A DNA stretch of 63,041 bases, the filler included, from Folioceros fuciformis (Eukaryota), in assembly GCA_049999805.1 (NCBI GenBank). It is 32 parts of 32 records of this genome, joined end to end, with 100 filler letters (N's around TTAATTAATTAA, not from the genome) between each part and the next. Parts side by side here need not be neighbours in the genome. Positions count along the whole stretch, not along the records: positions 54,821 to 56,971 come from JBNGIO010003794.1; 31 more parts are not named here. One strand, 5' to 3'. Positions 20,163 to 63,041 of the stretch are shown piece by piece. The translations under genes and the position numbers were made by a program. The notes beneath the pieces were generated by a model. The model searched no databases. It was not told the DNA's origin and saw only the letters and a program-made list of their open reading frames with translations. Each line of letters begins with the position of its first letter. Within the stretch, counting starts at the first letter, position 1.

Positions 20163-21272
20163 ATGAGGTCGTGTCCTGAGCTGCTGCCAAGAGTACTGGT
20201 GACTAAACAGGAGGAAGGGCCTCTTGTCCTGAAAATTGACGTGCTCCTGTGGTCTAATATGGAGCACTGGAGGGTCAGAGCCAAAGGGCTGGTCGGAGAA
20301 CTAGGCCTCGGGTTCATGACCCAGAGGTGGAACCATGCAACGCCGCAACTGGTCAGGGAGTGCGCCCTGAAGCTGAGATAGCCAGTTCGAGAGGAGGGAA
20401 TCTGTGGCAGACCCCAGGACTGGAACCTGGAGCTGGTGAGGCGGGTGTATGGCCGCGATCAGCAGGAGGAGGGAGGACTAGTGCTGGAGTCCATGAAGAA
20501 GCGTGGCAGCACAGTGGTCGCCGAGGTGCTGTTCAAACCGGGCACCAAAAAGGAAGCCAATGGGTGGCTGATCCATGACATGGCCAACCCCCAGCTGATG
20601 GGTCTGGCCAGATGGTTCCTTAGCTTCGTACAGGTTCGCAAGTAGGATTATCCGTCTGATCAGATGCTCTTGTTCGTGCACGAGGTTGTCAAAGGGAGCA
20701 AGGTGGATTGGGGGAAAATCTTGTACGCCAAGATGGACGAGGAGAGGCAGAATCTGACCCTACCTTCTCCTCGGCCTTCGATGATCTCCCCCTTCTTAGT
20801 CCATATTTACTGCTATGCTAACCTTGTGTCTGAACTGGAGGTACTCGCCTCGCTGCATATGTGGAGACCGATAAGGGATATGAAGTGGAAGACGCCGGGC
20901 CAGTGAGAGCCGACTCCAGCAGCTGGGAGTCGGGCATCGCGGACAGCTCGGAGGAGGAGAGACCCCCACCAAGCAGAAGAGGAAGGTGGGGGCAGGGAAG
21001 AAGACTCTTGCCAAGAAGAGACGGGCCAGCGGGCAGATCGCCAAGAGAGGAAGCGAGCCAGCGCCAGAGGAGCCAGCCCCGGAACAGGCTGAACAGGAAC
21101 CAATAGGAACCTGCTGGACNNNNNNNNNNNNNNNNNNNNNNNNNNNNNNNNNNNNNNNNNNNNNNNNNNNNNNNNNNNNNNNNNNNNNNNNNNNNNNNNN
21201 NNNNNNNNNNNNNNNNNNNTGGCTGAGCATGCAGGCGAAGAGGGAGGCTGAGGCCCGGAGCAAGGAGGCAGA
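20163..21272 (+). pseudogene. Diverged copy of the multi-copy retroelement accessory ORF (MRS.PEL... family)
   Basis: WNHATPQLVRECAL, RRVYGRDQQEEGGLVLES, KVDWGKILYAKMDEERQNL; frameshifts and a stop. Confidence 0.8.
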
Positions 21273-21849
21273 TGGTCACAACATTAAAGCAGAAAATTGT
21301 GGTATTTTTTATTTGTTAGGTTATAATACATTATCTTAGTATTGTATAAGTATGGTGATAGCATTTAATGAACCTGATATAAGCTAGAGGAGACTTTGTT
21401 GTAAATAGGACTTGTAAATAGGACTTTGGAATGTGTGTTGGATCTTTTTTATGCTGGTATTATACTATTATATAAATCATAAATATGACACTATGGACTC
21501 TGAAACGAACAAAGTGTCATATCCTTCATAGATAACCTTTTTATGTGATAACTTGACTTTGTTGGACATAGGACTTGACTCATATCCTCTATAGATAATT
21601 TTAGTATGTTATAACTTGAATTTGTTGGACATGGGACTTGATTGGGATCTGTTTTCTTTTTCTACTGATTGGGATCTTTTTATTGTTTGTATTGACTGGG
21701 ATTTATTTTTTGGTTTGTATTGTATGATTATATACAACCATAAATGTGGNNNNNNNNNNNNNNNNNNNNNNNNNNNNNNNNNNNNNNNNNNNNTTAATTA
21801 ATTAANNNNNNNNNNNNNNNNNNNNNNNNNNNNNNNNNNNNNNNNNNNN

Positions 21850-28908: not shown

Positions 28909-29010
28909 NNNNNNNNNNNNNNNNNNNNNNNNNNNNNNNNNNNNNNNNNNNNNNNNNNNNNNNNNNNNNNNNNNNNNNNNNNNNNNNNNNNNNNNNNNNN
29001 NNNNNNNNCT

Positions 29011-29088
29011 GTAGTCATGGCCCTTAGGAACTTAAAGCAAAGATGACCCTAGGAATCTTTGCACTAAGTTCCTAAGGGCCACGTCTAC
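29011..29088. repeat. 78-bp near-perfect inverted repeat (hairpin or micro-MITE)
   Basis: Left arm GTAGTCATGGCCCTTAGGAACTTAAAGCAAAGAT; reverse complement of right arm GTAGACGTGGCCCTTAGGAACTTAGTGCAAAGAT. Confidence 0.85.
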
Positions 29089-29623
29089 TTTAAGTGCTAG
29101 GATATAAAAAAGAAAAGAAAAGAAAAAAATCTTCTGAAGTGTACATACAAACAAAGTTGCAAAAAGGCAAGTCAAATGAAGGATGAAACTCAGTCCAATA
29201 CAATACCTCAAGCCCTTCTAAAAGAAAAAGTTCAGAAGATAAAGTTAATCATTGAGACCTTGCCTTGTGAGAGATAAAATACAAAATTAAATAAAATGAT
29301 AAAATGAAAAAGTGGGAAAGTACGCATTCCAAAAGATCTATTAATAAGATCTATTAATAGGACCCTTATTGGAGGCAACCTGGGCCATTGAGTAGCCCCG
29401 TCATATTCACCTTGTAAAGTTAATGAAACAGGATAAAATTATGCAACGAGAAAAAATTGGCCTCCTTAGATTACAATATCCATACAGACACCGGACAACG
29501 GCTAGATTAATCTTTTTTAAGACATAACCTACAACCTAATTCGACCGGGCACCCACAGCACCTAGGCTCCTAGCAACTTGCGAGTTTCACTAACTTCCCA
29601 ATTTGATCTGACTTGGATCGCGG

Positions 29624-30568: not shown

Positions 30569-31069
30569 AGCCCTAGCCAAACCACCTGCAGACTGCTGTT
30601 CTGCTACACAACGGAAACAGCTTTCCTGCCACGCAATTTTACGTGAGAAAAACTTCTAACATCTGGTGTCCTATGATTCTCAGTCACTGGCCCCATCAAG
30701 AGGAAGCTGCTGAAAACCTACCACCGAAGATGAAGCTGCTAACCTACCCGCCGAACGTGGATTCGATCCGCTGTGGCAAACTGTGAGAGGCTAGGACGAT
30801 TGTGTTCCTGACGCAAGTGCTAAACGTGTGCACTGCACACAGCAGTCTAAGCTTGAGGAGGAAGGGAGTGTGTCCATTCCAATCCTACATGTTCTGAATT
30901 GTGGGAACAGCACCCGGCCAACTGTTGTTAATTACACTTAAGATTGTCAATAACTGTCTTCCATGACAGAACTAGGCCACGAGAAGCGGAACAAATCGAA
31001 GAGTCTTAGGAAGAGAATTCTCGCATGGATATGAAGGCCCCATGTTTGGACAGGTCAGGATATGGATTC

Positions 31070-32166
31070 TTATTCAAGACCTTGGAACGTACTGGGATCG
31101 AACAAAAAGAGAGGAAGATGTCCGACTTGCCTCTGACCGATCTGCAACAGCGTTTCCCACAAAGTGATCAGCATCTCTCCAACGTGAAGTTGTTTGGCGA
31201 AGATGGTTTTCAAGGTCACAGGATGGAATCGGCACCTGGATAATGACGCCTCGGAAGGACCCTTGATATGGAGTCAACGTGCACAGCTGCACACGCTCTT
31301 CTGTGAGGACAACAACAAGCAACAGGGAAGAGTACAGACTTTGGGTAGAAGCTCACCTTCGTCTTGGCGTTGTACTTCACATAGACAGGCCCAAGGAGCA
31401 AATCAACCGGCTTGCCTTCTTCATCATCGAGCATCTGCAAAGGTGTGATGTAGCAAGGTATGATCACCTGTGATGGAACTCAGCCACTGACAAATCCTAA
31501 ATGACAGTGGACAGACAGGCCACACCCGAGGAGAGACCATCTCGCATCCGAGGGCTTGAGTCCATTGTTGCAGCGACTTGACAGCCTCCGCCGGGTCCCC
31601 GGCACAGATCCCCAGCAACGGTTGCGTCCCATCGGCCTTCAGTGCAGCCTCAGCGGCTACAAGGATAGATGCTGCCAGCGCATTGATCCCATCTTCGGTC
31701 CGAAGCGAAGGCTGCGGGGTTCGCCGGATATCATTTCGGTTGAAAGTGTCCAGGATTTCCCAGGCAGCTGCAACCACGTCTGCCTCTGCATTCAAAGCAC
31801 CACTATTGGCACAACGCCCCGCCCTTCAGGCTTCGGCTATCCTTTCATCCAGCTCTAATCGCCAATGCGCCTGCTGTGCTTAGTCCTAGGTGCGATCGTA
31901 CCTTGGAAAACGTGATCAGCGGGTTCAGAAACTCTGCAAGCCACCGGTGCTCGTCGTCTGCGCCAGCCATCCTGCAAGTGGCAAGTGATATCTCCTCCAG
32001 ACGGCACAGCTCCCACCACCGCCATCTGTGTGACGCAAAGACTCGAATGAGGCCATCGCAAATGCGTGGGGCAATCAGCTGCGCCGCCTAGCCTGGTGGA
32101 CACTGGAACCACGCTGCTGCAGCTGGTATCCAGTATGGCGATGGCCTTCAGCACCCTTGCCTCCAT
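31070..32166 (-). CDS. DUF1824-like protein with N-terminal transit peptide, 241 aa; exons 32166-31902, 31785-31526, 31434-31357, 31286-31236, 31141-31070
   Basis: Four GT-AG introns (116, 91, 70, 94 nt) join in frame. Motifs LGICA...AVKSLQQWTQALG, GPVYVKYN, YQGSFRGVIIQ, GHLPLFLF match the cyanobacterial DUF1824 pattern as I recall it. Confidence 0.8.
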
Positions 32167-32464
32167 CCGCAAAATATTGGGTGGGTGGAGTGTGCATCCA
32201 CCGATTGTCTGACCATCCGTTTACTCATATCCTCTCCTTGAGTCTATGTACTTCGGCATACAATCATGCTGCAAGTTGTAGCTGTCGGGCAGTTTCTCTT
32301 CAATGCAAGAATACTTCCTGTGGTATATTTCCAAAGATGAAACACGTTCTTGCAGCGAGACGGACTCTTGCTCACAAGATGTACCACAGTAAGAATAAGC
32401 CCCGGCAACATGAGAAATCGATGGTAGCGTTATCAACGCAATTGATTCAGGGAACGCGTGTTAT

Positions 32465-34498
32465 TTAATCTACAGTGTTTAGATTTCTGATTTGACCAAA
32501 TACTGTTGCCAGCATGGAGTAAATCTGCTTGCGTTCGGGATGGTCTTGATCTTCTACCACAAAAGTATGGACCTGACTTTCTAGCTCAAGCCAAGTGCGA
32601 CCTGGTTCTTTCCTCACACCTGACATGAGCATCTGGTTTCTGATATCCGCTTTGGCTTCCAGCTGGCCAGCACCATGGAAGATGTTTGCCATCATAACGT
32701 AAGCGGCACTGTTGGTTGGATCAGCCTCGACGATAGACCTGAAAGCCCGCTTTCCAAGCTCCACGTTCACATGGGTTTGGCATGCAGCAAGTAGCGACAA
32801 CCACACCACTCCATCGGGTTCTGATGGGAGTTGTTTTATCAGACCTTCTGCTTCTGAAAGATACCCAGCTCGGCAAATGAGGTCAACAAAGCAAGCGAAG
32901 TGCTCCTTTCCTGGAGTCAGTCCAAAATCTTCGGACATGGACTGGAAGAGGGAATAAGCCTCGTCAAGTAGACCTGCTCGGCTGCAGGCAGACAGCAATG
33001 ATACAAATGTTATGGTACTTGGCTCAATGCCTTCAGTTTTCATTCTCTGAAAGAGCTGAATTGCCTGGTGCACACCACCATGCTGAGCATATGCAGCGAT
33101 CATTGCTGTCCAGATGACGGTGTCCCTTGTCAGCAGCCTGTCAAACACCCTCTCTGCTTCCTCAAGGCTACCGCATTTGGCATACATGTCGATGAGGGTG
33201 CTAGAGATGTAGGGGTCAGATTCACAACCCGTGAGAATGGTCTTCACGTGTACAGCCCGTCCTTCTTGGAGGGCTGCAACAGTGGCACATGCCCTAAGGG
33301 TGCTGGAGAGAGTGATCACATCTGGCTGGACACCTTCTTGCTCCATCTGCTTAAATAGTTGGAGAGCGTCTTGACCATTGCCATGCTGCACATATCCTGT
33401 GATCATCGCATTCCAGGACACTAGGTTTCTGATCGACATGTCAAAGACTTTGCGAGCATCCTCAAGGCTCCCACACCTTGCATACATGCCAATAAGTGCA
33501 CTGCTGAGGAAGACGTCCGATTCCAGCTTAGCTCCCACAATGTCAGTGTGGATCAGTTTGCCCTGATCAAGAGCCATCACAGTGGAACACGCTTTCAGCA
33601 CACTAGAAAGTATGATGGCGTCCGGATGCATGCCCTGCCTTCGCAGGTCATGAAATAGTTGGATAGCCTCGTCTCCATCTCCTTGCTGAACATAACCTAC
33701 AACCATAGCAGTCCATGACACAAGGTTCTTGGTCGACAACCTGTCAAACAGTTGACGTGCCTCTTTTAGGCTGCCACATTTGGCATACATGTCAATGAGG
33801 GCACTGGCAACGAACACGTTGAGCTCCAACCCACCTTCCCTGGCGTGGCCGTGAATCAACCTGCCCTCTGCCAATGCTGCAGCAGTTGTACAAGCTTGAA
33901 TAACAGCCACAAAGACGTATTCATTGGGCTCCACATTAGACTGTTGCATGCAGCGATACAATTTGAGGGCATCCTCACTCCGTCCATACTTTGCATTTGC
34001 AGAGACAATTGAAGCCCACGCAAAGACGTCAGGAGCAGGTAGTTTCACAAAAGCCTGGTTTGCCTCGGTCAAACTCCCACATGCAGCAAACATACGCATC
34101 ACGTGGGCTCCCAAGAAGTTGCTGGACTCAAATCCTCTCCTAATGATAAGCCTGTGCACTCGCCTGCCAAATGCCAGGTGCTTATGCTTGATGCACGCCT
34201 CCAGAAGTCGGTACAACCTGTATGTAGTGTAGGCACCGATGCCTTGCCGATCCACAAGCTCCACGGCCTGCAACACCTCGTCCAGATGGCCATCCTCGCA
34301 TAGGCTAACCAGACCTCCAACTGAAAGTCTGCCCACTCTGCCAGACAGGGTAGCAAAATCGGGCCCTTGCCCAAGGCTTCTGGGAACACGACAAGGATCT
34401 GAAGCTGCCGACCGGTCACTCACAGTGCTGTAATGATGTGCTGGAACAATCCAATGGATCAGGAGACGAGCAGAGGATGCACATCGAGCCAGGCACAT
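32465..34498 (-). CDS. PLS-class PPR protein, E+ subclass (organellar RNA-editing factor type), 677 aa, intronless
   Basis: First ATG at 34498 (the track start 34522 is GTG). About five P-L-S triplets ending P2-L2-S2, then E1, E2, PG box KEPGRTW and HPE; stops before the DYW deaminase core. Confidence 0.95.
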   Translation of the reverse strand: MCLARCASSARLLIHWIVPAHHYSTVSDRSAASDPCRVPRSLGQGPDFATLSGRVGRLSVGGLVSLCEDGHLDEVLQAVELVDRQGIGAYTTYRLYRLLEACIKHKHLAFGRRVHRLIIRRGFESSNFLGAHVMRMFAACGSLTEANQAFVKLPAPDVFAWASIVSANAKYGRSEDALKLYRCMQQSNVEPNEYVFVAVIQACTTAAALAEGRLIHGHAREGGLELNVFVASALIDMYAKCGSLKEARQLFDRLSTKNLVSWTAMVVGYVQQGDGDEAIQLFHDLRRQGMHPDAIILSSVLKACSTVMALDQGKLIHTDIVGAKLESDVFLSSALIGMYARCGSLEDARKVFDMSIRNLVSWNAMITGYVQHGNGQDALQLFKQMEQEGVQPDVITLSSTLRACATVAALQEGRAVHVKTILTGCESDPYISSTLIDMYAKCGSLEEAERVFDRLLTRDTVIWTAMIAAYAQHGGVHQAIQLFQRMKTEGIEPSTITFVSLLSACSRAGLLDEAYSLFQSMSEDFGLTPGKEHFACFVDLICRAGYLSEAEGLIKQLPSEPDGVVWLSLLAACQTHVNVELGKRAFRSIVEADPTNSAAYVMMANIFHGAGQLEAKADIRNQMLMSGVRKEPGRTWLELESQVHTFVVEDQDHPERKQIYSMLATVFGQIRNLNTVD

Positions 34499-34954
34499 GT
34501 GTGTATGGTCATTCCCTTCCACGGACCACGCCGGACAGTGTTCCAGCCACTCTACAACCGTCCTTCACCCGACAACGATCAGTGCGGGGGGCACCGTTCA
34601 GCATCCGATTCCCCTCCGCCATGACCAGCCTCCCAACCTCAACCTGGGAACAAATCCCACAATCAACCCTTCGAAGCAAATACAGAGACAGTCCGTACAG
34701 TAACTCCGAGATTCTCCAGTTGTAAACCCTGCTTACTCGGGGCGACCGAGGTTGCTGGATGCTACATATAACGAGCACCGGGGAAGTCAGGTCTGCAATG
34801 CTTTTACAATACTGGCCGTACTGTTGCGAGAGGCTGGTGCCAGCGCACCGTTGCGGAGCGGCGGATCAGAAGAATTTGAAGGGCAGGACGGATCTGAAAT
34901 TTGTGAATTTGGTTTGAGCACAATCGGCACGGGGTAGGGTTGCGGACGGGCGAG
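34499..34954. promoter_or_regulatory. Probable bidirectional promoter and 5' UTRs (456 bp between divergent ATGs)
   Basis: Head-to-head gene arrangement; CpG-rich; no specific elements identified. Confidence 0.5.
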
Positions 34955-35791
34955 ATGGTGGCTCCATGGATTCCCATCAGAGCTGCACAGGGTTTCTTCC
35001 TCTTAGTAATGTTTCAAATTCCACTCTTCAGGTGAGGCCATCTTAAAGCTTGGAGTTTGTTTTCGGAAGTGATGGCGTAGCTGTGCATCCTTTCCTGGAA
35101 TCGTAGGGTAGCTGCGAGGTTTAATTGTCTGGTGGTTTTCAGTGTTCCGTGTCGGACAGGAGTTTGCTACTCTCCGGTGGAGGTTACGGCAGGAACCGTC
35201 GCTGTGTCAAAAGCATTACCTGAGGCTGTGGTCAAGGTGTTGCTGTATCCAGGAGCTGCTTTTCATTCTCTTCTTGGACAAGGGAGTAGTCCAAAGTGGT
35301 CGACCATTCTGGAAGACTACAACATGACCCAGTTCGATACTCCCTCAAAGGCTTACATCTACCGAATCGAGGTTAGGTCTTCATCCTTTTGGCACGGCGT
35401 TAGCCTCAGTTGCACCGGGCCACTTTGAATACATGGTTTGCGGCAGTCAGGACGCTGGATGTCATGGCACTAGTTTGACTTCGTTTGCGATCCTTAGGTG
35501 GTGATTGGGAGCTACTTCGTGGTTGCTGGCGCCCTTGTGGGGCTCTTCAAGTCTGGAAGGATGGGCTTATTCGGCATCCTCTTCATCATATGGGGTCTTC
35601 TGAAGGAGGGGATTTTCGAAAGGCCCGCTGGAGTCGAGAGTGCCTTGACTTCGACCCAGGCATACCCTGGTCTGCTGTTAGCTTTGATATTGGCAGGGTT
35701 GAGCATCAGGTACGACATGAATAAGGTGCAGAAGCTCACAAGGCCATTGGCAAAGCCTCTGAAGAGCTCAACCAAAACAAAATTCAATTGA
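34955..35791 (+). CDS. Conserved plant membrane protein of unknown function (At5g52420/At5g23920-like by recollection), 199 aa; exons 34955-35031, 35143-35371, 35498-35791
   Basis: GT-AG introns of 111 and 126 nt join in frame. FQIPLF.VPCR.G.C, VVKVLLYPGA, GSYF.VAGALVGL.K.GRM.LFG.L.IIWGL.KEG; C-terminal KTKFN fits a KxKxx ER-retrieval motif. Confidence 0.85.
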
Positions 35792-36721
35792 TAGCAGCCG
35801 TGTCGGCCGACACAGCATATTCGTTGATGAGGCTGACTGCAAGCATGTCTGCAAAAGGATTCACACATAGTTTGATTCACAGTTTAGTTCAGTCACAATT
35901 CTCCCTGACATAGTGAGTACTTTTCCTCCTTCACTTGTGTCTGATATTTCAGCCTGTTCGATTGACTGGGTCGACCGCTAAGTATAGTTTTATACCTTTA
36001 CAGGTCCCTTCTCCAGGGGCCAATGAATGCGCAGAATGTTTTCAGACAGGGTGACTGCGACTTTTCATGTCGGTGGCAGGGTCCATGCACTTGGTAAACA
36101 ATTGAGGTTGAGAGAGTTTTCTCTTCCATTCCATGGGAAGGTTTTCTTTTATTTTCAGAGCAGCGCGGCTCGAATGTGATTATACAATCTCAAATATGAC
36201 CTACTCTCGACGCCAGGTAATCAAGGCAAGAATTATCACCTCTTCTCGGATTATGTTCCCGCTAGCCTATTTTGGAATCAGTCCACCTTCGGGCTGCACA
36301 TCGCACAGATCTTTCAGATATCCCCGGGGAGCACCCGGAGATGACAGGTATGTATAATATGAAAGAGTCTGTAGTATCCTTACAATGGACCCAGAGACTG
36401 TATACGATAGGAACACTCAATGTCATCTCTGCTGCTAGCTGACTGCGAAGATAACCATTGGAAATCTACCATTATTGTCCCAAACATGAATAAGAAAGAA
36501 CAATCATAAGTGGTCAATGAGTGGTCTGAATGCCTTGACGAAAGAATGACCGATTTTGAAGCACTATGTCAAGGGTGTAGCGATCCCGTCGTCTAGAAGT
36601 CCTGCGAGTTCCAGTTATCCCTGCCGAGGCCAGATTCAATGGACATCAGGAAACGTTTATTTGATATTCGACATTAAAAATATTGGAGACAATTCACTTG
36701 ACCACTTCAGGCAAAGGGAAC

Positions 36722-37534
36722 TCACAAGAAAAACGAAGAGGGAGCAGGGGCGGGGACATCCGCGTCACTGAAGGTATCGTCCAAGACGGCCAAAGACCTC
36801 CTTCCCTGCTGACTGTTGGAAGCGCAGAGCTGGGGCAGGTAGATACCTGGAAATCCGAGTAAAACAGAGTTAGATGATTTCTCGAATCCAATGGTCTCTT
36901 GCGTATAGCCATGCAGGAAAACCTTCGAGCAGTACCTTCTCCTGCAGCCAACTTGATGTACAGGTCCAAAATGTTGTGGCAAGAGCCCATGCATGCAGAG
37001 GAGCACAGCTTGCTCAATGCATCGACATCCAGAAGCTCATCGGTGGACAGTCCGAAGGTCATGCGGGAAAGGCCGCAAGCTTCAATGCACTCGTCGGTCT
37101 CGATCCATTCCACAGCCTTATCGGCGACGACAACAGACGACTGCAGAAGTGGAAAGATTTAGGAAAAGAACTTGACCGGCGATACATCCGCTCGGCTTGG
37201 CTGGATTTTAACTGAAATGAGCTTCATTGAGGAGGAAAAGTTAGATGAGCACCTGGCACTCCAACCGGGTGACTCCATCAGGGGAGTACACTTTCTCCAG
37301 CACACAGCGAGCACCGCTAGACGAAACCGAGAAGGCGCAGTCCTCAACTAGCAGCTCCTCGCACTGCAGTGCCCCTGCACGTTCCCAGAAACAATGCGTT
37401 AAAAGAAATGAACGGCGGTCCGTTGAAGGTCAAAAATGAACTCGCCAGAGCGAAACGGGAGAAGTCGTACCGTATGAGAAGGAGGCCGACGCCAGGACCA
37501 CAACCAGGAACAGCACGATGCACGAGCGAGCCAT
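36722..37534 (-). CDS. PAR1 (photoassimilate-responsive) family secreted Cys-rich protein, 171 aa; exons 37534-37471, 37374-37253, 37140-36936, 36846-36722
   Basis: Signal peptide MARSCIVLFLVVVLASASFS; CEEL..EDCAFSVSSSGARCVLE; IETDECIEACG; KLCS.AC...C.NILDLY.KLAAGEG.YLP.LC; introns 96, 112, 89 nt. Confidence 0.9.
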
Positions 37535-38576
37535 TTCCTTGAGCTGAAGAAGCACTGCGCACAATAGGAACAAGCTCAAGATCAGTCCTACGAATCATAA
37601 AAATCTTTCAATCTCACATCCTACAGAGATTCAGCGGTGTCTGCTCCAAATATCCCCCTCCCGTTCAAGCTACAAGCCCGGAATCACTCTCCCCCCTCCC
37701 CTCCCCAGACCGCAACCGCCACGTTGCAACACCAGCAGAATCCGAACAGGACAAATCTTGCCGACTGCTACCACCCGCCGATCTAGACTAGAGAGCGACT
37801 AAAGAAGCTCCCGGACCCGAACCCGGTCCTGTCCATCCGCAAAGCAAACAACAGCAGACTTGAATCTATCTAACCAGGCTCTTCTTCCGCATACCACCGG
37901 ACTTTGCCAAGGAGACAAAAGAACTCAGATCTGGAGACCGACAGAGCAGCGCAACCCGATCCAGTCCTCCGTCCCTATGCATCCATAGCTCAGCATTCCT
38001 CCCCCTCTACCCTTCCTTCCTACCCGCGGCCTGCGCTAGCGTGAATGACACCCCTTCGTGTACCTGCTTGGATCAGATCTCCTCTCCGGATTGCAAGCGG
38101 TGCGGAAACGACAGCGAATGGACTCGAGAGAAGACAGCGGCAGAGGGAGTCAGAGCGCAGGGAGGCGGAACGGCAATGCTGCAGCAGGCGTCCAGTCTGC
38201 AATCTCGCTGGGGAGCTGTGAGATGGCAGACGCTGCAGCAGAGCAGCTTGAGAAGACCGGTGATGCGAGGCCGCTTAATAGGAGAAGCGGGCCGGGAAGC
38301 TGCCGCGCCTGCCGCTTCTTCGCTGGCGGACGCGGGAACGTGAGGGCAACACCACGCTTACTTCCCGCCGGGTAAACCAAACCAGCCTGGGTCAAGGAGC
38401 CCGCCGCCGAGCCGCCTGGCGATACTCAGTTTCCCCTTTCGTCCTCTCACACCGCGTGTGCCGGGCCTGGGTCCTGNNNNNNNNNNNNNNNNNNNNNNNN
38501 NNNNNNNNNNNNNNNNNNNNTTAATTAATTAANNNNNNNNNNNNNNNNNNNNNNNNNNNNNNNNNNNNNNNNNNNN

Positions 38577-47545: not shown

Positions 47546-48687
47546 AGGAGCCATAGGAGGAGGAGGAACACCACCAGTCAGAAAAGTAAAGGGCTGAACA
47601 AAGGGATCAATAGAAGTATCACCAGAAGAGCGAGGAGTGCTCGAGCCAAAGGAAGCACCATCTTGCACGTTAAGAGGAGGCTCAAATGACGTCGCAAGAT
47701 CAAGCACTATCTTAGCTTCATCAAAGGTGACAGTGCGGGCGTAGATAGGAATCCGAGAGTCCAAGTCCACGAGCTTGTAGGCTTTGCGGTCATCGTCATA
47801 ATCGACAAACACCAACTTGCGAGCACGAGCATCAAGCTTGTCGCGAAGCTGTGATGGGACAAGAGCATAGGCAGGGCAACCAAAAACACGAAGATGTGAA
47901 ATTAAAGGGTTGCTCCCATGCCAACACTCATATGGAGTACGGCCAGAAACCAACTTGGTGAGGACTTTGTTCTTAATGTACATTGCAGTAGACATAGCCT
48001 CAGCCCAAAAGGACTTGGGTAGCTAGGACTGTGCCAGCATGGCATGAGCCATGGACATCAAATTGCCATAGGCCTTCTCAGCAACGCCGTTCTGCTCAGA
48101 AGTCTAGGGCANNNNNNNNNNAGGAGCCATAGGAGGAGGAGGAACACCACCAGTCAGAAAAGTAAAGGGCTGAACAAAGGGATCAATAGAAGTATCACCA
48201 GAAGAGCGAGGAGTGCTCGAGCCAAAGGAAGCACCATCTTGCACGTTAAGAGGAGGCTCAAATGACGTCGCAAGATCAAGCACTATCTTAGCTTCATCAA
48301 AGGTGACAGTGCGGGCGTAGATAGGAATCCGAGAGTCCAAGTCCACGAGCTTGTAGGCTTTGCGGTCATCGTCATAATCGACAAACACCAACTTGCGAGC
48401 ACGAGCATCAAGCTTGTCGCGAAGCTGTGATGGGACAAGAGCATAGGCAGGGCAACCAAAAACACGAAGATGTGAAATTAAAGGGTTGCTCCCATGCCAA
48501 CACTCATATGGAGTACGGCCAGAAACCAACTTGGTGAGGACTTTGTTCTTAATGTACATTGCAGTAGACATAGCCTCAGCCCAAAAGGACTTGGGTAGCT
48601 AGGACTGTGCCAGCATGGCATGAGCCATGGACATCAAATTGCCATAGGCCTTCTCAGCAACGCCGTTCTGCTCAGAAGTCTAGGGCA
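47546..48687 (-). mobile_element. pol: Copia integrase fragment, 566 bp, present twice across a 10-N gap (47546-48111 = 48122-48687)
   Basis: QNGVAE, FWAEAMSTAMY, HLRVFGCPAYA, KLDARARK; the exact duplication suggests an artefact. Confidence 0.9.
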
Positions 48688-54720: not shown

Positions 54721-55142
54721 NNNNNNNNNNNNNNNNNNNNNNNNNNNNNNNNNNNNNNNNNNNNTTAATTAATTAANNNNNNNNNNNNNNNNNNNNNNNN
54801 NNNNNNNNNNNNNNNNNNNNGAGGGACGACTGGTGGTAGCCCGACGGGCGGTAAGGAGAGAAAGCAGGCAGGGCATAAAAACCCAAGAGAAAGGGGAGCT
54901 TTGTTCAACATCCGAAAGCGCGGGGAGCGGGAGTAACTTGAAGCGTGAAGCGGCTGAAGGAGGAGAAAGGGCCAGGACGACGGGGCAGACGGCGCAGGGC
55001 GTGAGGGTTGAGCAGGCACAGGGGAGTGGGAGACCTCCAAGGCGCGAGCGGTGGAGAGAGCTGGGCGAACAAAGGAAGAGCCAGAGCGTGACCAGGACAG
55101 AAGAGTTCCGAGCCCGAGCGTGAGGGGAGGAGGACAGCTAGG

Positions 55143-55513
55143 ATGAGGTCGCGGCCTGAACTGATCCCTGGAGCAGCAGCCTCTAGACAGGAGGGGGGAC
55201 CTCCTGTCCCCCAAATCGACCTACTCCTGTGGCCCAATATAGAGCACTGGAGGGTCAGGGCAGGAAAGTTGGTGGCAAAGCTGGGTCTGACTTTTATGAC
55301 CCAGAAGTGGAACTATGCAGCACCCCAGTTGGTTAGGGAGTGCGCCTTGAGGCTGATAGAGCCTGTACGCGAGGAGGGGATCAGAGGTACACCCCAGGAA
55401 TGGAACCTGGAGTTGATTAGGAGGGTCTACAAGCGCGACCAACAGGAGGAAGGGGGACTAGTGCTGGAGTCCCTGAAGAGGCGTGGCGGAACGAGAGCCG
55501 CGGAAACGCTGCT
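55143..55513 (+). pseudogene. Accessory ORF copy truncated by insertion of the TGTGAAC terminus at 55514
   Basis: MRSRPELIPG...RAAETLL, then an abrupt switch to sequence nearly identical to 56181 onward. Confidence 0.85.
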
Positions 55514-56180
55514 TGTGAACGAAAAAAACTTTCGGAATCCCCATTTTGAGCGACGGAATGAGCGGGTTGTGATTCTTTTTGTGAAGGGACAGGCGAATCG
55601 GCTTAGTAAGCGAGTNNNNNNNNNNNNNNNNNNNNNNNNNNNNNNNNNNNNNNNNNNNNNNNNNNNNNNNNNNNNNNNNNNNNNNNNNNNNNNNNNNNNN
55701 NNNNNNNNNNNNNNNGGGCAACGGTCGCCTAACGGTCTACCGCTCGTGGGTCCCACTCTCTCTCTCTCTCTCTCTCTCAATTCCCTCTCTCTAGGGTTTT
55801 CTCTCCCACCGGGTCGTTCCTACCCGACAGATTACCTCCTGCCCGCGCATCCCCGTTTGCACTTCCCTTCCTTGGTTCACCACAAAACCGCCTCACTCAG
55901 CTCAGAAACAAGCGCACGCACACATGAACAGCAGTTGGACGCCTTCCACCCGCGTGATCTCACCCTTAGATACACCCCCTGCGGTCTCAATTCAGCTACT
56001 TCACAGCCTCTCCAGTCTCATCATGACCAGTCACACATACACACCACGTCTCGTTGTATCCCACACACATTACTCACCTTGCCTCCAAGGTTTCCCCGGA
56101 TTTATTCTCTCTTACCCCACTCACCAGTTCTCTGTATACATTCTACCCGTCTTAACAGTCGTCGAATCATTTCCACTCCG

Positions 56181-56971
56181 TGTGAACGAAAAAAACTTTC
56201 GGAATCCCCATTTTGAGCGACGGAATGAGCAGATTGTGATTCTTTTTGTGAAGGGACAGGCGAATCGACTTAGTAAGCGAGTAAGACCAGGGTGTTTATA
56301 CCCGAAGTCCACCTTGGGCTTCGAGGTTTGGGGTGTACTGGAGATCGGGACAAGGAGGAAGGAGGAAGCAGCGAGTGCCTCCCTGACCCTCGAGTCCTTG
56401 AGAACATTCAGGTAGGCCAAAGTAAGGGCCGAGACGACGGGGCGACGGTAGCCGGCAGGGCAACCGTCGCCGGAGGAACGACTGGTGGGAGCCCGATGGG
56501 CGGTAAGAAGAGAAAGCAGGTAGGGTATAAGAACCCTAGAGAAAGCGGAGCTTTGTCCAGTATCCGGAAGCGTGGGGAGCGGGAGTAACTTGAAGCGTAA
56601 AGTGGCTGAGGAAGGCGAAAGCGCCAGGACGACGGGACAAACGGCGCAGGGCGTAAGGGATGAGCAGACGCAGGGGAGTGGAAGACCTCCAAGGTGTGAG
56701 CCGTGGAGAGATCTGGGTGAACAGAGGAAGGGCCAGAGCGCAACCAGGACAGAAGAGTTCTGAGTCCAAGCGCGAGAGGAGGGGGACAGGCAGGATGAGG
56801 TCACGGCCTGAACTGATCCCTGGAGCAACAGCCTCTAGACAGGAGAGGGGACCTCCTGTCCCCCAAATCGACCTACTTCTGTGGCCCAACATGGAGCATT
56901 GGAGAGTCAGGGCAGGAAAATTGGTGGCAGAGCTGGGTCTGACTTTTATGACCCAGAAGTGGAACCATGCA
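56181..56971 (+). mobile_element. Element terminus TGTGAACG, leader with TATA-like TATAAG (56526) and start of accessory ORF (ATG 56795)
   Basis: Terminus defined by two copies with different left flanks; continuous gap-free sequence into the ORF. Confidence 0.8.
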
Positions 56972-58387: not shown

Positions 58388-60136
58388 TGCCTTAGCCATT
58401 TCCTGTTGCAACTCCAGGTTAGCCTCGTGAGCCTCCCTCACCTGAGCTAGCAGGGCCCCCTGTTGTTCCTTCAGCGCCTGCACTTCAGCCCTCGCCTCGC
58501 GCGCCTCTTCTTCGGCTTGAGCCTTCTCCCTGTCCAGGACCCGTTGCTTCTCCTCCAGCAGTTGCCGCACTGTCTTCGACTCCGCCAGTTGCCTCCTTAC
58601 TTCAACCTCTTGCTCACGAGCCTCCTTCTCCTTTCCTCAAGTCTCGGTTTCTCGCTCCGCTTGTACACTTAACCAGGTCAGGGCCCTAGTAGCCTGATCT
58701 AGGAGGTCTGCTTGGGCTTGCACCATCGCAGCAGTCAGCCCGGGCAGGTCCACNNNNNNNNNNNNNNNNNNNNNNNNNNNNNNNNNNNNNNNNNNNNNNN
58801 NNNNNNNNNNNNNNNNNNNNNNNNNNNNNNNNNNNNNNNNNNNNNNNNNNNNNTCTGCTTGGGCTTGCACCATCGCAGCAGTCAGCCCGGGCAGGTCCAC
58901 CTCCTGCACCCCTCCGGTGCCCATTCCTCTTGCCGTGATTTGTCTGCCCAGGAATTCTCGAAACTTGTCCAGGTCCCCCACCTGCAACCTGTCTCTCTGA
59001 GGCCTGCACCTGAAAATGTCCTCCCACCCTGAGAAACCCTCTTGTGCTGAAACGCGCCCTAACTTATCCTCCTGTCTGGAGGAAACTGTGTCCACTGCCA
59101 TCACCTGATCCTGTGGCCCCTCGGGTCTTGTCTCACCCTGACCTTACTCCTCCAACCTTCGGTCCTCAATTCCCTGGACTGCTGGTTCTCGTCCTCCCTC
59201 CTGCTGGCCCTTCTACTCCAGGGTTGCCCCCTCTTCCTCCTGATCAGCCCCCATGCTCACACTTTGTCCTCTGGCTCTTTTCCTCTTGACAGGAGTCTTC
59301 TTCTGTAGCACCATCCTCTTCCTGGGCTTGACTGGAGTTTCCTCCTGTGAGCTATTTCCACTGTCAGCTTCCCAACTGCTGGAGGCAGCCCTTGCTGGCT
59401 CAGCGGGCTTCCACTTCACATCGCGAACTGGCTTCCACAGGTGCAGCGAGGCCAGCATTTCTAACTCAATGAGTAGGTCAGCGTAACTGTACACATGGAT
59501 TAGGAACGGGGAAATCATAGAAGGTTCAAGATTGGGTCGGATCAGGTTCTGCCTCTCCTCATCCATTCGGACATATAAAATCCGCCCCCAGTCGATCCTG
59601 GTACCCTTCACTACTTCATGCACAAACAGGAGCATCTGGACGGACAGATAATCCTGTTTACGCACCCAGAAGAAGCTCAGGAACCACCTGGCCAATCCCA
59701 ACAACTGGGAACTTGCCATGTCGCGCACCAGCCACCCGTTCGCTTCCTCTTTCATGCCTGCCTTGAGCAACGTTTCCGCGGCTCCCGTCCCGCCACGCTT
59801 CTTCAGGGACTCCAGCACCAGTCCCCCCTCCTCCTGTTGGTCGCGCCCGTATACCTTCCTAATCAACTCTAGGCTCCATTCCTGGGGTCTGCCTCTGATC
59901 CCCTCCTCGCGTACAGGCTCTATCAGCCTCAGGGCGCACTCCCTGACCAGCTGGGGTGCTGCATGGTTCCACTTCTGGGTCATAAAGCTCAGACCCCGCT
60001 CTGCCACCAACTTCCTTGCCATGACCCTCTAGTGCTCCATATTGGGCCACAGGAGTAGGTCAATTCGGGGGACAGGAGGCCCCCCCTCCTGTCCAGAGGC
60101 TGCTGCTCCAAGGATCAGTTCAGGCCGCGCCCTCAT
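58388..60136 (-). pseudogene. Most complete copy of the accessory ORF: globular N-domain, basic/acidic linker, middle domain, coiled coil
   Basis: ATG at 60136; one frameshift and a few stops, mostly explicable as C>T; continues through track ORFs 59213-60022, 58637-59104 and 58340-58570. Confidence 0.8.
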
Positions 60137-60382
60137 CTTGCCTGTCCTCCTCCTCTCACACCTTGCGCCATCTCTCCCATCGTCCTAGCGCTTTCCCCTC
60201 TTTCAGCCGCTTCACGCTTCAAGTTACTCCCGCTTCCCGTACTTTCGGATGCTGGACAGAGCTCCCCTTTCTCTAGGGTTTTNNNNNNNNNNNNNNNNNN
60301 NNNNNNNNNNNNNNNNNNNNNNNNNNTTAATTAATTAANNNNNNNNNNNNNNNNNNNNNNNNNNNNNNNNNNNNNNNNNNNN

Positions 60383-61579
60383 CGGCGCCTGCACCGGAAA
60401 TAATTAGTTAGGGTTTGGGGTGGGACCCACCACGGAGGTAGCTGAAGCGGCTACCAGTAGTTGAAGGGTTGGTAGTTGTAGAGACCCTCACCCCAGTAGC
60501 CGAGTAGGTCTATCAGGTAGTCCAGGGACAGAGGTAGGGGTAGTTGAACCCGTAGGTAGTGGAGCTGGGGTAGTTGAAGTTCAACCTAGGTAGTAACTTA
60601 CTTTTAGAAGAAACCTGTGTTATTTGACACAAATCATTCCCTTGGGATCGAATCCCAGTGCTATAACGACAAAGAGGGTTTGTGTGGACCTCGCAGCACC
60701 CCCGGGTGCAATATTTTCCCCCACATTTTGGCGCCGTTGCCGGGGAATGTATTGCTGTGAAGAACATAGCTAGGAGTAACTAACACCTGAATAGAGAGTC
60801 TAGAGTAGCCTGAATAGAGAGTCTAGGTAGTGATAGGTNNNNNNNNNNNNNNNNNNNNNNNNNNNNNNNNNNNNNNNNNNNNNNNNNNNNNNNNNNNNNN
60901 NNNNNNNNNNNNNNNNNNNNNNNNNNNNNNNNNNNNNNTGCTATAACGACAAAGAGGGTTTGTGTGGACCTCGCAGCACCCCCGGGTGCAATATTTTCCC
61001 CCACATTTTGGCGCCGTTGCCGGGGAATGAACTGCTGTCAAGAACATAGGTAGGAGTGACTACCCTTTGGATAGAGAGCCTAGGTAGTGATAGGTTGATA
61101 GCTGCCTCGCATGAAGACCAGGGACTCTAAGCCTGATCCTACAGAACTACCATTGGTGAACGGCAACACCAAGCAGCGAAGAGGTTGCAGAGGGTCGCCA
61201 GAAGGTCGTAGTGGGAGAGCACACCTGCTGGATGAGGAAGAAGGACAAGGAGTCAGCCTGGAGCTGAAGGTCAGATTTCATTTAAGCCAAATCTGCAACT
61301 TTCGGGTTTGGAGGAGGTATCTGGGCCCGGGTACCCCAATCCAAGCCCGTTGGTTGATCTCCATTCCAGGGTGCCTCGCTCAACTTCAGTCCAGACACAT
61401 TTTGTGGAAGTCAGTTCAGGTGCGGTAGTTGTATCGGCTACCACGGTTGCTGAAAGGACTACCGCGGTAGCTATGACTACTACTGTAACCACTAAGCAGC
61501 CTTACCCACTGTATGGGGATGGGAAGGGTTATGAGGATCCTGACGACTTTGTTGAGCATTTTGAGCAGTTGACCATTGC
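60383..61579 (+). mobile_element. gag: Athila-like element 5' region: LTR end ...TTTTCCCCCACA, tRNA-Asp PBS (60729-60746 and 61009-61026), degenerate gag start
   Basis: TGGCGCCGTTGCCGGGGA is complementary to the plant tRNA-Asp 3' end; YPLYGDGKGYEDPDDFVEHFE is gag-like. Confidence 0.85.
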
Positions 61580-61679: not shown

Positions 61680-63041
61680 GGGCAAGTCCACCTCCTGCAC
61701 CCCTCCAGTGCCCATTCCTCTCGCCGTGATTTGTCTACCCAGGAGTTCTCGCAACTTGTCCAGGTCCCCCACCTGCAACCTGTCTCTCTGAGGCCTGCAC
61801 CTGAAAATGTCCTCCCACCCTGAAAAACCCTCCTATGCTGTAACGCGCCCTAACTTATCCTCCTGTTTGGAGGAAACTGTGTCGGCTGTCATCACCTGAT
61901 CCCGGGCTCCTCGAGTCTTGTCTCACCCTGACCTTGTTCCTCCAACCATCGGTCCTCGATTCCCTGGACAGCTGGTTCTCGTTCTTCCTCCTGCTGGCCT
62001 GTCTGCTCCAGGGCTATCCCCCCTTCCTCCTGATCAGCCCCCATGCTCACACTTGGTCCTCTGATCCTTTTCCTCCTCGTGGGAGCCTTCTTTTGTGGGG
62101 CCATCCTCTTCCTGGGCTTGGCTGGGGTTTCCTCCTGCGAGCTATCCCCACTGTCAGCTTCCCAACTGCTAGAGGCAGCCCTTACTNNNNNNNNNNNNNN
62201 NNNNNNNNNNNNNNNNNNNNNNNNNNNNNNNNNNNNNNNNNNNNNNNNNNNNNNNNNNNNNNNNNNNNNNNNNNNNNNNNNNNNNNTGATCAGCCCCCAT
62301 GCTCACACTTGGTCCTCTGATCCTTTTCCTCCTCGTGGGAGCCTTCTTTTGTGGGGCCATCCTCTTCCTGGGCTTGGCTGGGGTTTCCTCCTGCGTGCTA
62401 TCCCCACTGTCAGCTTCCCAACTGCTAGAGGCAGCCCTTACTGTCTCAGCGGGCTTCCACTTCACATCATGAACTGGCTTCCACAGGTGCAGCGAGGCCA
62501 GCCTTTCTAGCTCAGTGACCACGTTAGCATAACTGTACACGTGGATTAGAAACGGGGAAATCATAGAAGGTTCAGGGGTGGGTCGGATCAGGTTCTGCCT
62601 CTCCTCATCCATCCGGGTGTATAAAATCCTTCCCCAGTCGATCTTGGTGCCCTTCACTACTTCATACACAAACAGGAGCATCTGATCGAACAGATAATCC
62701 TGTTTGCGTACCCGGAAGAAGCTCAGGACCCACCTGACCAATCCCAATAGCTGGAGACTTGCCATGTCGCGCACCAGCCACCCGTTCGCTTCCTTTCTCG
62801 TGCCTGCCTTGAGCAGTGTTTCCGCCGCTTCCGTTCCGCCACGCCTCTTTAGGGACTCCAGCACCAGCCCCCCTTCCTCCTGTTGGTCGCGCCCGTACAC
62901 CCTCCTGACCAACTCCAAGTTCCATTCCTGGGGTCTGCCTCTGATCCCCTCCTCGTGTACGGGCTCTATCAGCCTCAGGGCGCACTCCCTGACCAGCTGA
63001 GGTGCTGCATGGTTCCACTTCTGGGTCATAAAAGTCAGACC
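61680..63041 (-). pseudogene. Further accessory ORF copy; 62287-63041 is an uninterrupted frame
   Basis: MTQKWNHAAPQLVRECALRL...KIDWGRILYTRMDEERQNL...PRKRMAPQKKAPTRRKRIR; the two sides of the gap overlap by ~155 bp. Confidence 0.85.

What the first reader, a model, noticed from the sequence alone, without database searches (positions are those of the whole stretch)
56181..56971. Large multi-copy accessory gene starting ~0.6 kb inside a TGTGAAC element terminus (possible gene inside a giant LTR)
Seen: five copies of one ORF (20163, 55143, 56795, 60136-, 63041-), four showing the ATG-AGG start. Differences between diverged copies are conservative (KGSKVDWGKILYAKMDEERQNL vs KGTKIDWGRILYTRMDEERQNL). 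The reconstructed protein is roughly 550-600+ aa: ~240-aa globular domain, NLS-like PRKRMAPQKKAPTRRKR, acidic linker, middle domain, long coiled coil. It has no gag, RT, IN or DDE motif. The terminus TGTGAACG (55514, 56181) runs gap-free through a TATA-like box to the ATG 614 nt later, and I see no LTR end, PBS or PPT in between. A complementary GTTCACA terminus occurs at 15857 and 27233. The reverse complement ...GTTTTTTTCGTTCACA resembles the T-rich U5 ends of other LTRs here (TTTTCCCCCACA, TTTTGCCTCCACA). Inference: an antisense gene embedded in a multi-kb LTR of an Athila/Tat-related element, so solo LTRs would disperse a complete expression unit. It may be analogous to the antisense accessory ORFs of Retand/Tat elements or to TE-encoded anti-silencing factors.
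Basis: partly seen in the sequence, partly recalled or inferred. Interest (0 to 1): 0.72.

Follow-up and report, generated by a model that had tools for sequence, protein, structure and literature searches.

The report
Retrotransposon accessory gene near element end
A plant jumping-gene family carries an extra gene for a probable nuclear protein close to one of its ends; extra genes of this kind are already known, and the idea that this one lies inside a giant terminal repeat is not shown.

Summary
Five decayed copies of one ORF are present. TGTGAACG is a true mobile-element end, seen against different flanks. In contig 55716-56971 it runs without a gap to the ATG 614 nt later.

The window is a chain of 32 tiny two-contig scaffolds joined by artificial linkers, so only sequence within one contig is physically linked.

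The protein has a roughly 200-aa Trp-rich N-domain, an NLS-like basic stretch and a coiled-coil-like tail. It evolved under purifying selection (dN/dS 0.11-0.39). It is very isolated: 9 weak hits among 1.84 billion representatives. Its nearest Pfam family is Transposase_32, below cut-off.

A profile link (hhalign 97.6%, E 3.6e-12) ties it to an ORF that lies 800 nt downstream of a Ty3/gypsy integrase on a metagenome contig. So it belongs to the known kind called extra ORFs of plant Ty3/gypsy retrotransposons.

The "giant LTR" reading is neither proved nor excluded. Read depth is about twice as high over the first ~170 nt, and TG..CA candidates for a ~170-190-bp repeat exist. These favour a short terminal repeat with the ORF internal, either Retand-like antisense or in a gag-pol-less derivative. 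The GTTCACA "partner" end rests on a 7-mer only.

The parts
54821..55142 (+). Upstream (promoter and leader) region of ORF copy A. It is homologous to 56473-56794.
   Evidence: blastn gives 89% over 499 nt together with the ORF start. The upstream part alone is 86.3% identical (278/322), against 93.8% (166/177) for the coding part.
55143..55513 (+). ORF copy A, codons 1-123, broken off by the inserted terminus.
   Evidence: Translation. The other copies continue ...AAETLLKAG... where this one switches to the terminus sequence.
55514..55615 (+). Left terminus (TGTGAACG...) of a second, nested copy of the unit. It runs to the contig end.
   Evidence: 97% identical to 56181-56282 over 102 nt, while the host copy is only 89% identical to contig B.
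55716..56180 (.). Unrelated repeat X, interrupted by the element.
   Evidence: Logan contigs of 3 of the 4 runs laid continue past 56180 with one common sequence that is not in the window (table 7). Depth here is 5-20 times lower than in the element in runs X1 and X2 (table 2).
56181..56370 (.). Terminal ~170-190 nt of the unit, a candidate short terminal repeat (inference). On the + strand it reads TG...CA over 56181-56352. On the - strand it reads TG...CA over 56370-56181. A TATA-like motif on the - strand lies at 56289-56303.
   Evidence: The end is seen with different flanks. Depth is 1.5-3 times that of the ORF over 56178-56345 (table 2). Motifs were read. The inverted TATA pair is I3.
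56371..56794 (+). Leader and promoter region. It holds a polypyrimidine stretch at 56378-56391 (a PPT-like run on the - strand), a 13-nt hairpin at 56441-56471, and a TATA-like box at 56519-56532, about 270 nt before the ATG.
   Evidence: Sequence. Repeats I3 and I4. TATA-like boxes lie 215 and 310 nt before the first ATG of the related ORFs in L001 and L002.
56795..56971 (+). ORF copy B, codons 1-59, running to the contig end.
58388..60136 (-). Longest ORF copy: N-domain, NLS-like stretch, acidic linker, middle part and coiled-coil-like tail. It has 4 in-frame stops and is still open at the contig end. The two contigs overlap across the N gap.
   Evidence: Translation. Pfam Transposase_32 gives E 0.005.
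60137..60282 (-). Upstream region of that copy, with a ~120-nt deletion relative to contig B.
   Evidence: The same deletion form (skip 56651-56774) is seen in Logan contigs (table 5).
61680..63041 (-). ORF copy cut by the window end, carrying a frameshift and stops. The two contigs overlap.
   Evidence: 62031-62186 = 62287-62442, 99.4%.
20163..21285 (+). Diverged subfamily copy (72-76% DNA identity) with stops and a frameshift. It leaves homology at about 21285 and enters AT-rich DNA.
   Evidence: dN/dS against the other copies is 0.11-0.24.

Best explanation
These are decayed copies of the accessory (extra) ORF of a high-copy Ty3/gypsy-type LTR-retrotransposon family in a land plant, probably not a flowering plant.

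The ORF encodes a protein of at least 630 aa. It has a Trp-rich N-terminal domain of the Transposase_32 / ATHILA ORF-1 kind, a basic NLS-like stretch, an acidic linker and a coiled-coil-like tail. It appears to have its own TATA-type promoter about 270 nt upstream of the ATG.

The unit that carries it has a real, precise end (TGTGAACG...) 614 nt upstream of the ATG. That end has inserted into other repeats, including an older copy of the same ORF.

Most likely (inferred) only the outermost ~170-190 nt are a short terminal repeat, and the ORF lies in the internal region reading away from that end. Two layouts fit this. One is an antisense ORF next to a short 3' LTR, as in Retand elements. The other is a sense ORF in a derivative that has lost gag-pol.

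Inferred function: a nuclear, oligomeric, chromatin- or nucleic-acid-binding factor made by the element for its own benefit. It would regulate the element's transcription or protect it from silencing, or help nuclear steps of retrotransposition.

Shown: copies, terminus, selection, homology, and a gypsy context in a relative. Inferred: LTR length, orientation, promoter use and function.

The confidence given is for the whole statement. That it is a retrotransposon accessory ORF I hold at about 0.9. That it is internal rather than LTR-borne I hold at about 0.6.
For: Copies and terminus.

True insertion boundary at 56180/56181:
- Repeat X continues with one common sequence in 3 of the 4 runs laid.
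- Other contigs show other flanks before 56181.
- Depth jumps from 112-208 to 2636-3969 in X1 and X2.

Nested insertion at 55514: the 102 nt after it are 97% identical to contig B, while the host copy is 89% identical.

Selection:
- dN/dS is 0.11-0.24 between subfamilies and 0.15-0.39 among young copies (9 of the 10 pairs had enough codons to compute a ratio).
- Coding sequence is 93.8% identical between A and B, against 86.3% for the upstream region.

Family:
- Pfam Transposase_32 gives E 0.005 and 0.064, covering model positions 2-150 and 15-169 of 177.
- Atlas neighbours of homologue P0008 are ATHILA ORF-1 (0.90) and Transposase_32 (0.90, 0.89). Those of P0005 are Transposase_28 (0.82-0.83). 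All are leads only.

Gypsy context:
- L002 carries RVT_1, RT_RNaseH, Integrase_H2C2 and rve.
- The related 620-aa ORF follows 800 nt downstream on the same strand.

Link to the window ORF:
- hhalign gives 97.6%, E 3.6e-12, over 177 columns.
- tblastn of the L001 ORF against the window gives E 1.5e-7.

Shared anatomy:
- The domain, acidic/basic linker and coiled-coil layout recurs in relatives.
- TATA-like boxes lie 215-310 nt before the ATG in L001, L002 and the window.

Short terminal repeat:
- Depth over 56178-56345 averages 2403, 2721 and 1800 in X1, X2 and X4.
- Depth over the ORF averages 1296, 1765 and 582 (table 2).
- TG..CA candidates of 172 and 190 nt are present.

Precedent from papers:
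- Retand antisense Transposase_28 ORFs lie between pol and the 3' LTR, some with Smc- or Mis12-type coiled-coil hits (PMC11963269, passages).
- Sunflower Athila 14 has a 3' ORF with Transposase_32 and an NLS (PMC11728184, passages).
Against: - No tRNA-like PBS follows either candidate repeat end on the + strand (read). The window has no tRNA gene to compare with.
- On the - strand the PPT-like run is 7 nt away from the candidate LTR start rather than adjacent.
- LTRs of Athila/Tat-type elements are usually long, up to ~5 kb (PMC6317226, passages).
- The depth figure is a sum of contig mean depths at 85% likeness and is noisy. Bins 56346-56429 drop to 437-698.
- In L002 the related ORF is sense and reads toward the element's 3' end. 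The window ORF reads away from the nearby end, so the layout differs from that of the only relative with context.
- ORF pieces outnumber gypsy pol pieces in the window: 5 against 1. The 1 is at 24206-24708. Pfam was run on 44 of the 73 ORFs of 110 aa or more and on 75 of the 157 ORFs of 70-109 aa. This also fits an LTR-borne gene.
- Pfam membership is not met (17.2 and 13.6 bits against a cut-off of 45). None of the 9 distant homologues hits Transposase_32, Transposase_28, PMD or ATHILA at E up to 10.
Confidence: 0.55

Rival explanations
1. The promoter-ORF unit lies inside a multi-kb LTR of an Athila/Tat-type element, so each element carries two copies and solo LTRs spread complete expression units.
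For: - There is a gap-free run from the TG terminus to the ATG, with no canonical LTR end plus PBS in between.
- ORF pieces outnumber gypsy pol pieces 5 to 1 in the window.
- Elements of this clade can have LTRs up to ~5 kb (PMC6317226, passages).
- The ORF seems to have its own TATA box.
Against: - Depth over the first ~170 nt is 1.5-3 times that over the ORF in 3 runs. A single LTR should be even.
- In run X3, 2 of the 17 contigs laid enter the promoter-ORF block from other upstream sequence, at 56513 and 56671 (table 7).
- In the only relative with context, the ORF is internal and lies after the integrase.
- The proposed partner end GTTCACA shares only 7 nt, and that 7-mer is common.
- No second LTR copy has been seen.
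Confidence: 0.17
2. The unit is not an LTR element in its present form. The promoter-ORF module could have been captured by another transposon class. It could also be an ORF transcript copied and spread by another element's machinery. In either case TGTGAACG would be that carrier's end or the transcript start.
For: - No PBS, PPT or second LTR can be demonstrated.
- Distant homologues occur on 2-5.4 kb contigs that hold little else (L001).
Against: - TG at the end, and precise identical ends at different sites, are typical of LTR elements.
- No transposase, LINE RT or endonuclease domain turned up in the ORFs scanned.
- The relative L002 is inside a gypsy element.
Confidence: 0.15
3. The link between the terminus part (56181 to about 56470) and the promoter-ORF part is a short-read assembly chimera of two abundant repeats, so the 614-nt distance is not real.
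For: - Only contig 55716-56971 spans it. Contig A starts at the position equivalent to 56473.
- Run X3, from a different study, has depth 0 over 56430-56471 and 1.4 over 56472-56513. One of its contigs enters at 56513 from unrelated sequence.
- The assembly has artefacts, namely identical contigs placed twice in one scaffold.
Against: - Runs X1, X2 and X4 cover 56430-56513 at depth 782-4176, and a 110-nt contig bridges 56330-56439. However, these three runs are one sample and may be the window's own data.
- The hairpin arms at 56441-56471 are only 13 nt long, too short to confuse a k-mer graph.
Confidence: 0.1

Closest known systems
Antisense Transposase_28 (TRP28) ORFs of Retand elements (PMC11963269; PMC7264820)
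   Same: An extra ORF of a non-chromovirus gypsy element that starts near one element end and reads inward. It has an N-terminal domain of unknown function followed by coiled-coil-type sequence. A nuclear role has been proposed. Some family members lack gag or pol domains.
   Different: There is no Pfam PF04195 hit. Retand and TRP28 are reported only from flowering plants. Antisense orientation and position relative to pol cannot be seen in this window. The distance to the element end here (614 nt) would require a very short LTR.
Sense 3' extra ORF of Athila elements with Transposase_32 / ATHILA ORF-1 (sunflower Athila 14, PMC11728184)
   Same: This is the nearest Pfam family (weak, full-length match). 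An NLS is present. The related ORF in L002 sits after the integrase on the same strand.
   Different: The window ORF reads away from the nearby terminus, not toward it. It scores 17 bits against a cut-off of 45. Its long coiled-coil tail is not described for Athila 14.
Ogre ORF1 with plant mobile domain (PMD-A), upstream of gag (PMC6317226; PMC5418596)
   Same: An extra ORF shortly after the left end of the element in sense orientation. One distant homologue (P0005) is labelled a PMD protein by UniRef.
   Different: There is no PF10536 hit. No PBS lies between the terminus and the ORF. Ogre LTRs are kilobases long.
Host PMD-C proteins MAIN and MAIL1 (PMC5418596; bioRxiv 10.1101/2024.09.27.615353, abstract)
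   Same: They may belong to the same broad group of transposon-related domains. They act on chromatin at specific DNA motifs, which is the basis for the function proposed here.
   Different: They are single-copy host genes. Homology to the window protein was not tested directly.
ORF carried in a retroviral LTR (MMTV sag; recalled, not from a call)
   Same: It would be the analogue if the giant-LTR reading were true.
   Different: It is an animal retrovirus, the protein is unrelated, and LTR residence is not shown here.

Membership tests
Extra ORFs (eORF/aORF) of plant Ty3/gypsy LTR retrotransposons | A homologous ORF lies inside a gypsy element next to gag-pol but is not part of the polyprotein. 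| tested here: met
   In L002 the pol domains occupy 1-2313 and the related ORF occupies 3116-4978 on the same strand. The profile link to the window ORF is 97.6%, E 3.6e-12. This is met in a relative, not within the window itself.
Extra ORFs (eORF/aORF) of plant Ty3/gypsy LTR retrotransposons | The ORF is multi-copy and conserved by selection across diverged element copies. | tested here: met
   5 copies. dN/dS is 0.11-0.39.
Pfam Transposase_32 (PF20167) | Score at or above the gathering cut-off of 45 bits. | tested here: not met
   17.2 and 13.6 bits (E 0.005 and 0.064), although the alignment covers 2-150 and 15-169 of 177 model positions.
Pfam Transposase_28 (PF04195), PMD (PF10536), ATHILA ORF-1 (PF03078) | Any HMM match. 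| tested here: not met
   No match at E up to 10 for 2 window copies and 9 homologues. There are only embedding and structure leads for two homologues.
LTR retrotransposon terminus | A precise end beginning with TG, found against different flanking DNA. | tested here: met
   55514 and 56181 have different left flanks. Further flanks appear in Logan contigs.
LTR retrotransposon terminus | The same sequence occurs as a direct repeat at the other end, with a 4-6 bp target-site duplication. | not testable with these tools
   No contig reaches the other end and no whole genome is held. No further copy of 56181-56480 is in the window.
LTR retrotransposon terminus | A PBS lies next to the 5' LTR, or a PPT lies next to the 3' LTR. 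| tested here: inconclusive
   No tRNA-like PBS was seen by eye. A polypurine run at 56352-56368 (+) and a PPT-like run at 56378-56391 (-) exist, but neither sits in canonical register. The window has no tRNA genes to match against.
Gene embedded in an LTR | The ORF lies between the two ends of the LTR and is present in both LTRs. | not testable with these tools
   Only the left end is seen. The depth ratio argues weakly against this.
Retand-type antisense aORF | The ORF is antisense to gag-pol and lies between pol and the 3' LTR. | not testable with these tools
   No window contig joins the ORF to pol. The single gypsy pol piece (24206-24708) is on another scaffold.

The most novel reading that the evidence does not exclude
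A complete promoter-plus-ORF unit for a nuclear PMD/Transposase_32-like coiled-coil protein is carried inside the long terminal repeat of a plant retrotransposon. Both LTRs and every solo LTR would then be potential expression units for an element-encoded chromatin or anti-silencing factor. My phrase search of the paper library found no plant report of this layout.
Probability: 0.15. Interest if true: 0.7.

Novelty: new member of a known kind. Interest (0 to 1): 0.36.

Why it matters
Extra ORFs of plant Ty3/gypsy elements are widespread, but their function is unknown. The Retand paper I read reports the Transposase_28 domain and the Retand lineage only from flowering plants. Ikeda et al. trace gypsy-encoded PMD to the common ancestor of angiosperms.

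The family found here has the same build: a domain, an NLS-like stretch and a coiled coil. It is under purifying selection. Its relatives are in liverworts and on unnamed metagenome contigs, one of them inside a gypsy element.

This suggests the type of accessory protein may be older than flowering plants, and it offers diverged sequences for defining the conserved core (three Trp, one Gly and one His are invariant).

If the LTR-borne reading were true, it would be a new way for a plant retrotransposon to multiply an expression unit.

Tried and rejected
Tools that gave nothing:
- No whole genome is held for this window.
- Structure prediction was not accepting jobs, so there is no fold and no fold search.
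- The Atlas does not hold the window protein or the P0004 part. Stored homologues were used instead, and their hits are leads only.

Searches that found nothing useful:
- The representative search found no close relative: 9 hits, the best at E 1.7e-7.
- The profile search of the 5.8-billion collection returned only 8 Riccia proteins without Pfam labels, so it gave no bridge to Pfam families.
- The PDB profile search gave only weak coiled-coil-type hits, E 0.003-0.9.
- The scan of viral contigs found no relative.
A 4-sequence alignment then found 2 loci.
- L001 and L002 have no long direct repeats, so they show no LTRs.
- A relaxed blastn of 56181-56480 and of repeat X against the window found no further copies.
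- ARAGORN found 0 tRNA genes, so no PBS match could be computed.
- No RNA holder was listed among the sequencing runs.

Parts without cover in run X3 (56430-56513) are noted only as a caveat.

Ideas rejected:
- The junction at 55514 is not an intron boundary. The same sequence begins at 56181 after an unrelated flank.
- X is not the end of an element inserted into this unit. X continues consistently past the junction in other copies.

Taxon: the PPR gene at 32468-34564 gave best matches of only 32-46% identity, to lycophyte, Ginkgo, conifer, fern, liverwort and moss proteins. It therefore gives only a rough placement.

Full report
What the window is. The 63,041 bases hold 95 runs of real sequence. 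Of these, 31 are 12-nt TTAATTAATTAA linkers flanked by N. The remaining 64 are contigs, paired into 32 small scaffolds by gaps of 100 N or 10 N. Adjacency between scaffolds is therefore artificial. Contigs of one scaffold can overlap across the gap: 58707-58753 equals 58854-58900, and 62031-62186 equals 62287-62442. Domains found in longer ORFs show a land plant: a PPR-E gene, PAR1, and many Ty1/copia pieces. The PPR protein is at best 46% identical to database proteins, among them lycophyte, Ginkgo, conifer, fern, liverwort and moss entries. The plant itself is probably not in the protein collection.

The observation. The finding's scaffold consists of contig A (54821-55615) and contig B (55716-56971). 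Five copies of one ORF exist as stated. The four at 55143(+), 56795(+), 60136(-) and 63041(-) are 88-91% identical in DNA. The copy at 20163(+) is 72-76% identical to them. Four begin ATG-AGG, and the fifth is cut by the window end. All copies long enough to judge carry in-frame stops or frameshifts. Contig B differs from Logan contigs mostly where B has A or T and they have G or C: A>G 24-28 and T>C 11-17 places per run. These are therefore old, decayed copies. TGTGAACG occurs only at 55514 and 56181, and in B it runs without an N to the ATG 614 nt later.

The terminus is real. I laid Logan contigs of four runs (two studies; three of the runs are one sample) on contig B.
- The sequence left of 56181, repeat X, goes on past 56180 with one common sequence in three of the four runs.
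- Other contigs bring other flanks up to 56181.
- Depth rises from 112-208 to 2636-3969 at that point in X1 and X2.

So a high-copy unit starts exactly at 56181 and has interrupted X. In contig A the same terminus follows codon 123 of an ORF copy that continues normally in the other copies. The 102 nt after that junction are 97% identical to B, while A's own ORF and leader are 89% identical to B. The simplest reading is that a younger copy of the unit inserted into an older copy.

The protein. The longest copy gives an N-terminal domain of about 200 residues and a basic stretch (KPRKRM..KK..KRKR). An acidic linker, a middle part and a charged heptad-like tail follow, and the tail is still open at the contig end. 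I ran no coiled-coil predictor. The only support for a coiled coil is composition, weak PDB hits to coiled-coil proteins and weak Pfam coiled-coil hits in homologue P0005.

Selection is clear. Nei-Gojobori dN/dS is 0.11-0.24 between the diverged copy and the others (dS 0.8-1.4), and 0.15-0.39 among the younger copies. A and B are 93.8% identical in coding sequence but 86.3% identical upstream.

The family is poorly represented. HMMER against 1.84 billion representatives found 9 proteins, with E from 1.7e-7 to 4.8e-4 and 22-31% identity. Three are from the liverworts Riccia and Marchantia, and one of these is labelled a plant-mobile-domain protein by UniRef. The rest are unnamed. The alignment shows a shared build and five invariant residues, three Trp, one Gly and one His. 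That looks like a binding domain rather than an enzyme.

Pfam gives only Transposase_32, at 17.2 and 13.6 bits against a cut-off of 45. The alignment nevertheless spans almost the whole model. None of the nine homologues hits any related Pfam family. Atlas neighbours are ATHILA ORF-1 and Transposase_32 clusters (0.89-0.90) for P0008, and Transposase_28 clusters (0.82-0.83) for P0005. These are leads, not tests.

Context in a relative. A scan of metagenome contigs with four of the homologues found two loci. L002 (5193 nt) encodes part of a Ty3/gypsy pol at 1-2313: RVT_1, RT_RNaseH, Integrase_H2C2 and rve. After 800 nt, on the same strand, comes a 620-aa member of this family. A profile of the two window copies matches a profile of L002, L001 and four homologues with probability 97.6%, E 3.6e-12, over 177 columns. 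The L001 ORF finds the window copies by tblastn at E 1.5e-7. The direct pairwise match of the window ORF to L002 is weak, at E 0.002.

The family is therefore an extra ORF of gypsy retrotransposons, a known kind. [quoted passage not shown] Transposase_32 with an NLS occurs in a sunflower Athila 3' ORF (PMC11728184, passages). Antisense Transposase_28 ORFs lie between pol and the 3' LTR in Retand (PMC11963269, passages). In L001, L002 and the window, a TATA-like box lies 215-310 nt before the first ATG. This suggests, as inference, that the ORF is transcribed from its own promoter.

Is the gene inside a giant LTR? The window cannot settle this. No contig reaches the other end, no genome is held, and no other copy of 56181-56480 is present.

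Points for a long LTR:
- No canonical LTR end followed by a tRNA-like PBS lies between terminus and ATG. By contrast, an Athila-like LTR end with an obvious PBS sits at 60713-60743.
- ORF pieces outnumber gypsy pol pieces 5 to 1. The one pol piece is at 24206-24708. Pfam was run on 44 of 73 longer ORFs and 75 of 157 shorter ORFs.
- LTRs of this clade can reach 5 kb.

Points against a long LTR:
- Summed contig depth over 56178-56345 is 1.9, 1.5 and 3.1 times that over the ORF in X1, X2 and X4. This fits a short repeat present twice per element, although the measure is crude.
- The first 172 nt read TG...CA on the + strand, and 56370-56181 read TG...CA on the - strand. The - strand reading has a TATA-like motif and a purine-rich run 7 nt before its start.
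- In the small independent run X3, 2 of 17 laid contigs enter the promoter-ORF block from other sequence, at 56513 and 56671.
- In L002 the ORF is internal.

I therefore favour a short terminal repeat with an internal ORF that reads away from it. That means either a Retand-like antisense layout or a derivative lacking gag-pol. I put the giant-LTR reading at about one in six. A chimeric contig B remains possible, because only that contig joins 56181 to about 56473.

The GTTCACA ends. 15810-15857 and 27186-27233 are one AT-rich repeat (37% G+C, against 48-61% for the element). It ends in GTTCACA against two different flanks. It shares nothing with the element apart from the 7-nt complement. That 7-mer occurs 12 times in the window against 6.2 expected. 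There is no evidence that it bounds the same unit.

How it probably works (inference). The element makes a nuclear protein that oligomerises through its coiled-coil tail and uses its Trp-rich domain to bind chromatin or nucleic acid. Host PMD-C proteins associate with specific DNA motifs and oppose Polycomb silencing (bioRxiv 10.1101/2024.09.27.615353, abstract). The protein encoded by the maize Grande antisense ORF is nuclear (PMC11963269, passages). A regulatory role in retrotransposition has been proposed for antisense extra ORFs (PMC7264820 and PMC11963269, passages). A role in keeping the element's own promoter active, or in nuclear steps of retrotransposition, fits the purifying selection. 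None of this was tested here.

Verdict. The object is a new, very diverged member of a known kind. The striking part of the interpretation, a gene inside a giant LTR, is unproven and somewhat disfavoured.

Noticed in passing
window 21850-22881 and 47546-48687: Two scaffolds each consist of the same contig placed twice, 100% identical and separated by 10 N. This is an assembly artefact. The first contig encodes RTX calcium-binding repeats (HemolysinCabind, E 3.6e-9), which is odd for a plant and may be bacterial contamination.
   Followed up: partly
window 60659-60743 and 60939-61579: An Athila-like LTR end (...TTTTCCCCCACA) is followed after 3 nt by a clear primer-binding site beginning TGGCGCC. 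The tRNA-Asp type is recalled, not tested. A leader and what looks like the start of a gag ORF follow. This canonical LTR/PBS contrasts with the finding's terminus.
   Followed up: partly
window 29009-38476: The one long contig holds ordinary genes: a 699-aa PPR protein with E and E+ motifs (32468-34564, -), a PAR1-domain ORF (36697-37158, -) and a TPR ORF (29627-30655, -).
   Followed up: partly
window 56181-56794 versus the ORF copies: CpG observed/expected is 0.92 in the terminus-leader region but 0.45-0.52 in three ORF copies. So the promoter-side region has kept its CpGs while the coding parts have lost them.
   Followed up: no
window 56289-56303 and 56523-56537: Two similar TATA-like motifs (GGGTATAA.A.CCC) face away from each other, 219 nt apart (I3). 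They may be divergent promoters or a chance match.
   Followed up: no
window 21286-21749: The diverged ORF copy leaves homology inside the coiled-coil region and enters 29% G+C DNA that matches nothing else in the window. This could be an insertion or that subfamily's natural end.
   Followed up: no
L002 2667-2834 and L001 200-370: Short tandem motifs (ACGGAACGCG-like in L002, CCGGA-rich in L001) lie just upstream of the TATA-like box of the related ORFs. They look like promoter-proximal repeats.
   Followed up: no
window 1699-7542: A 5.8-kb contig carries a nearly complete Ty1/copia gag-pol on the minus strand: Retrotran_gag_2, Pol_BBD, rve, SH3_retrovirus and RVT_2.
   Followed up: no
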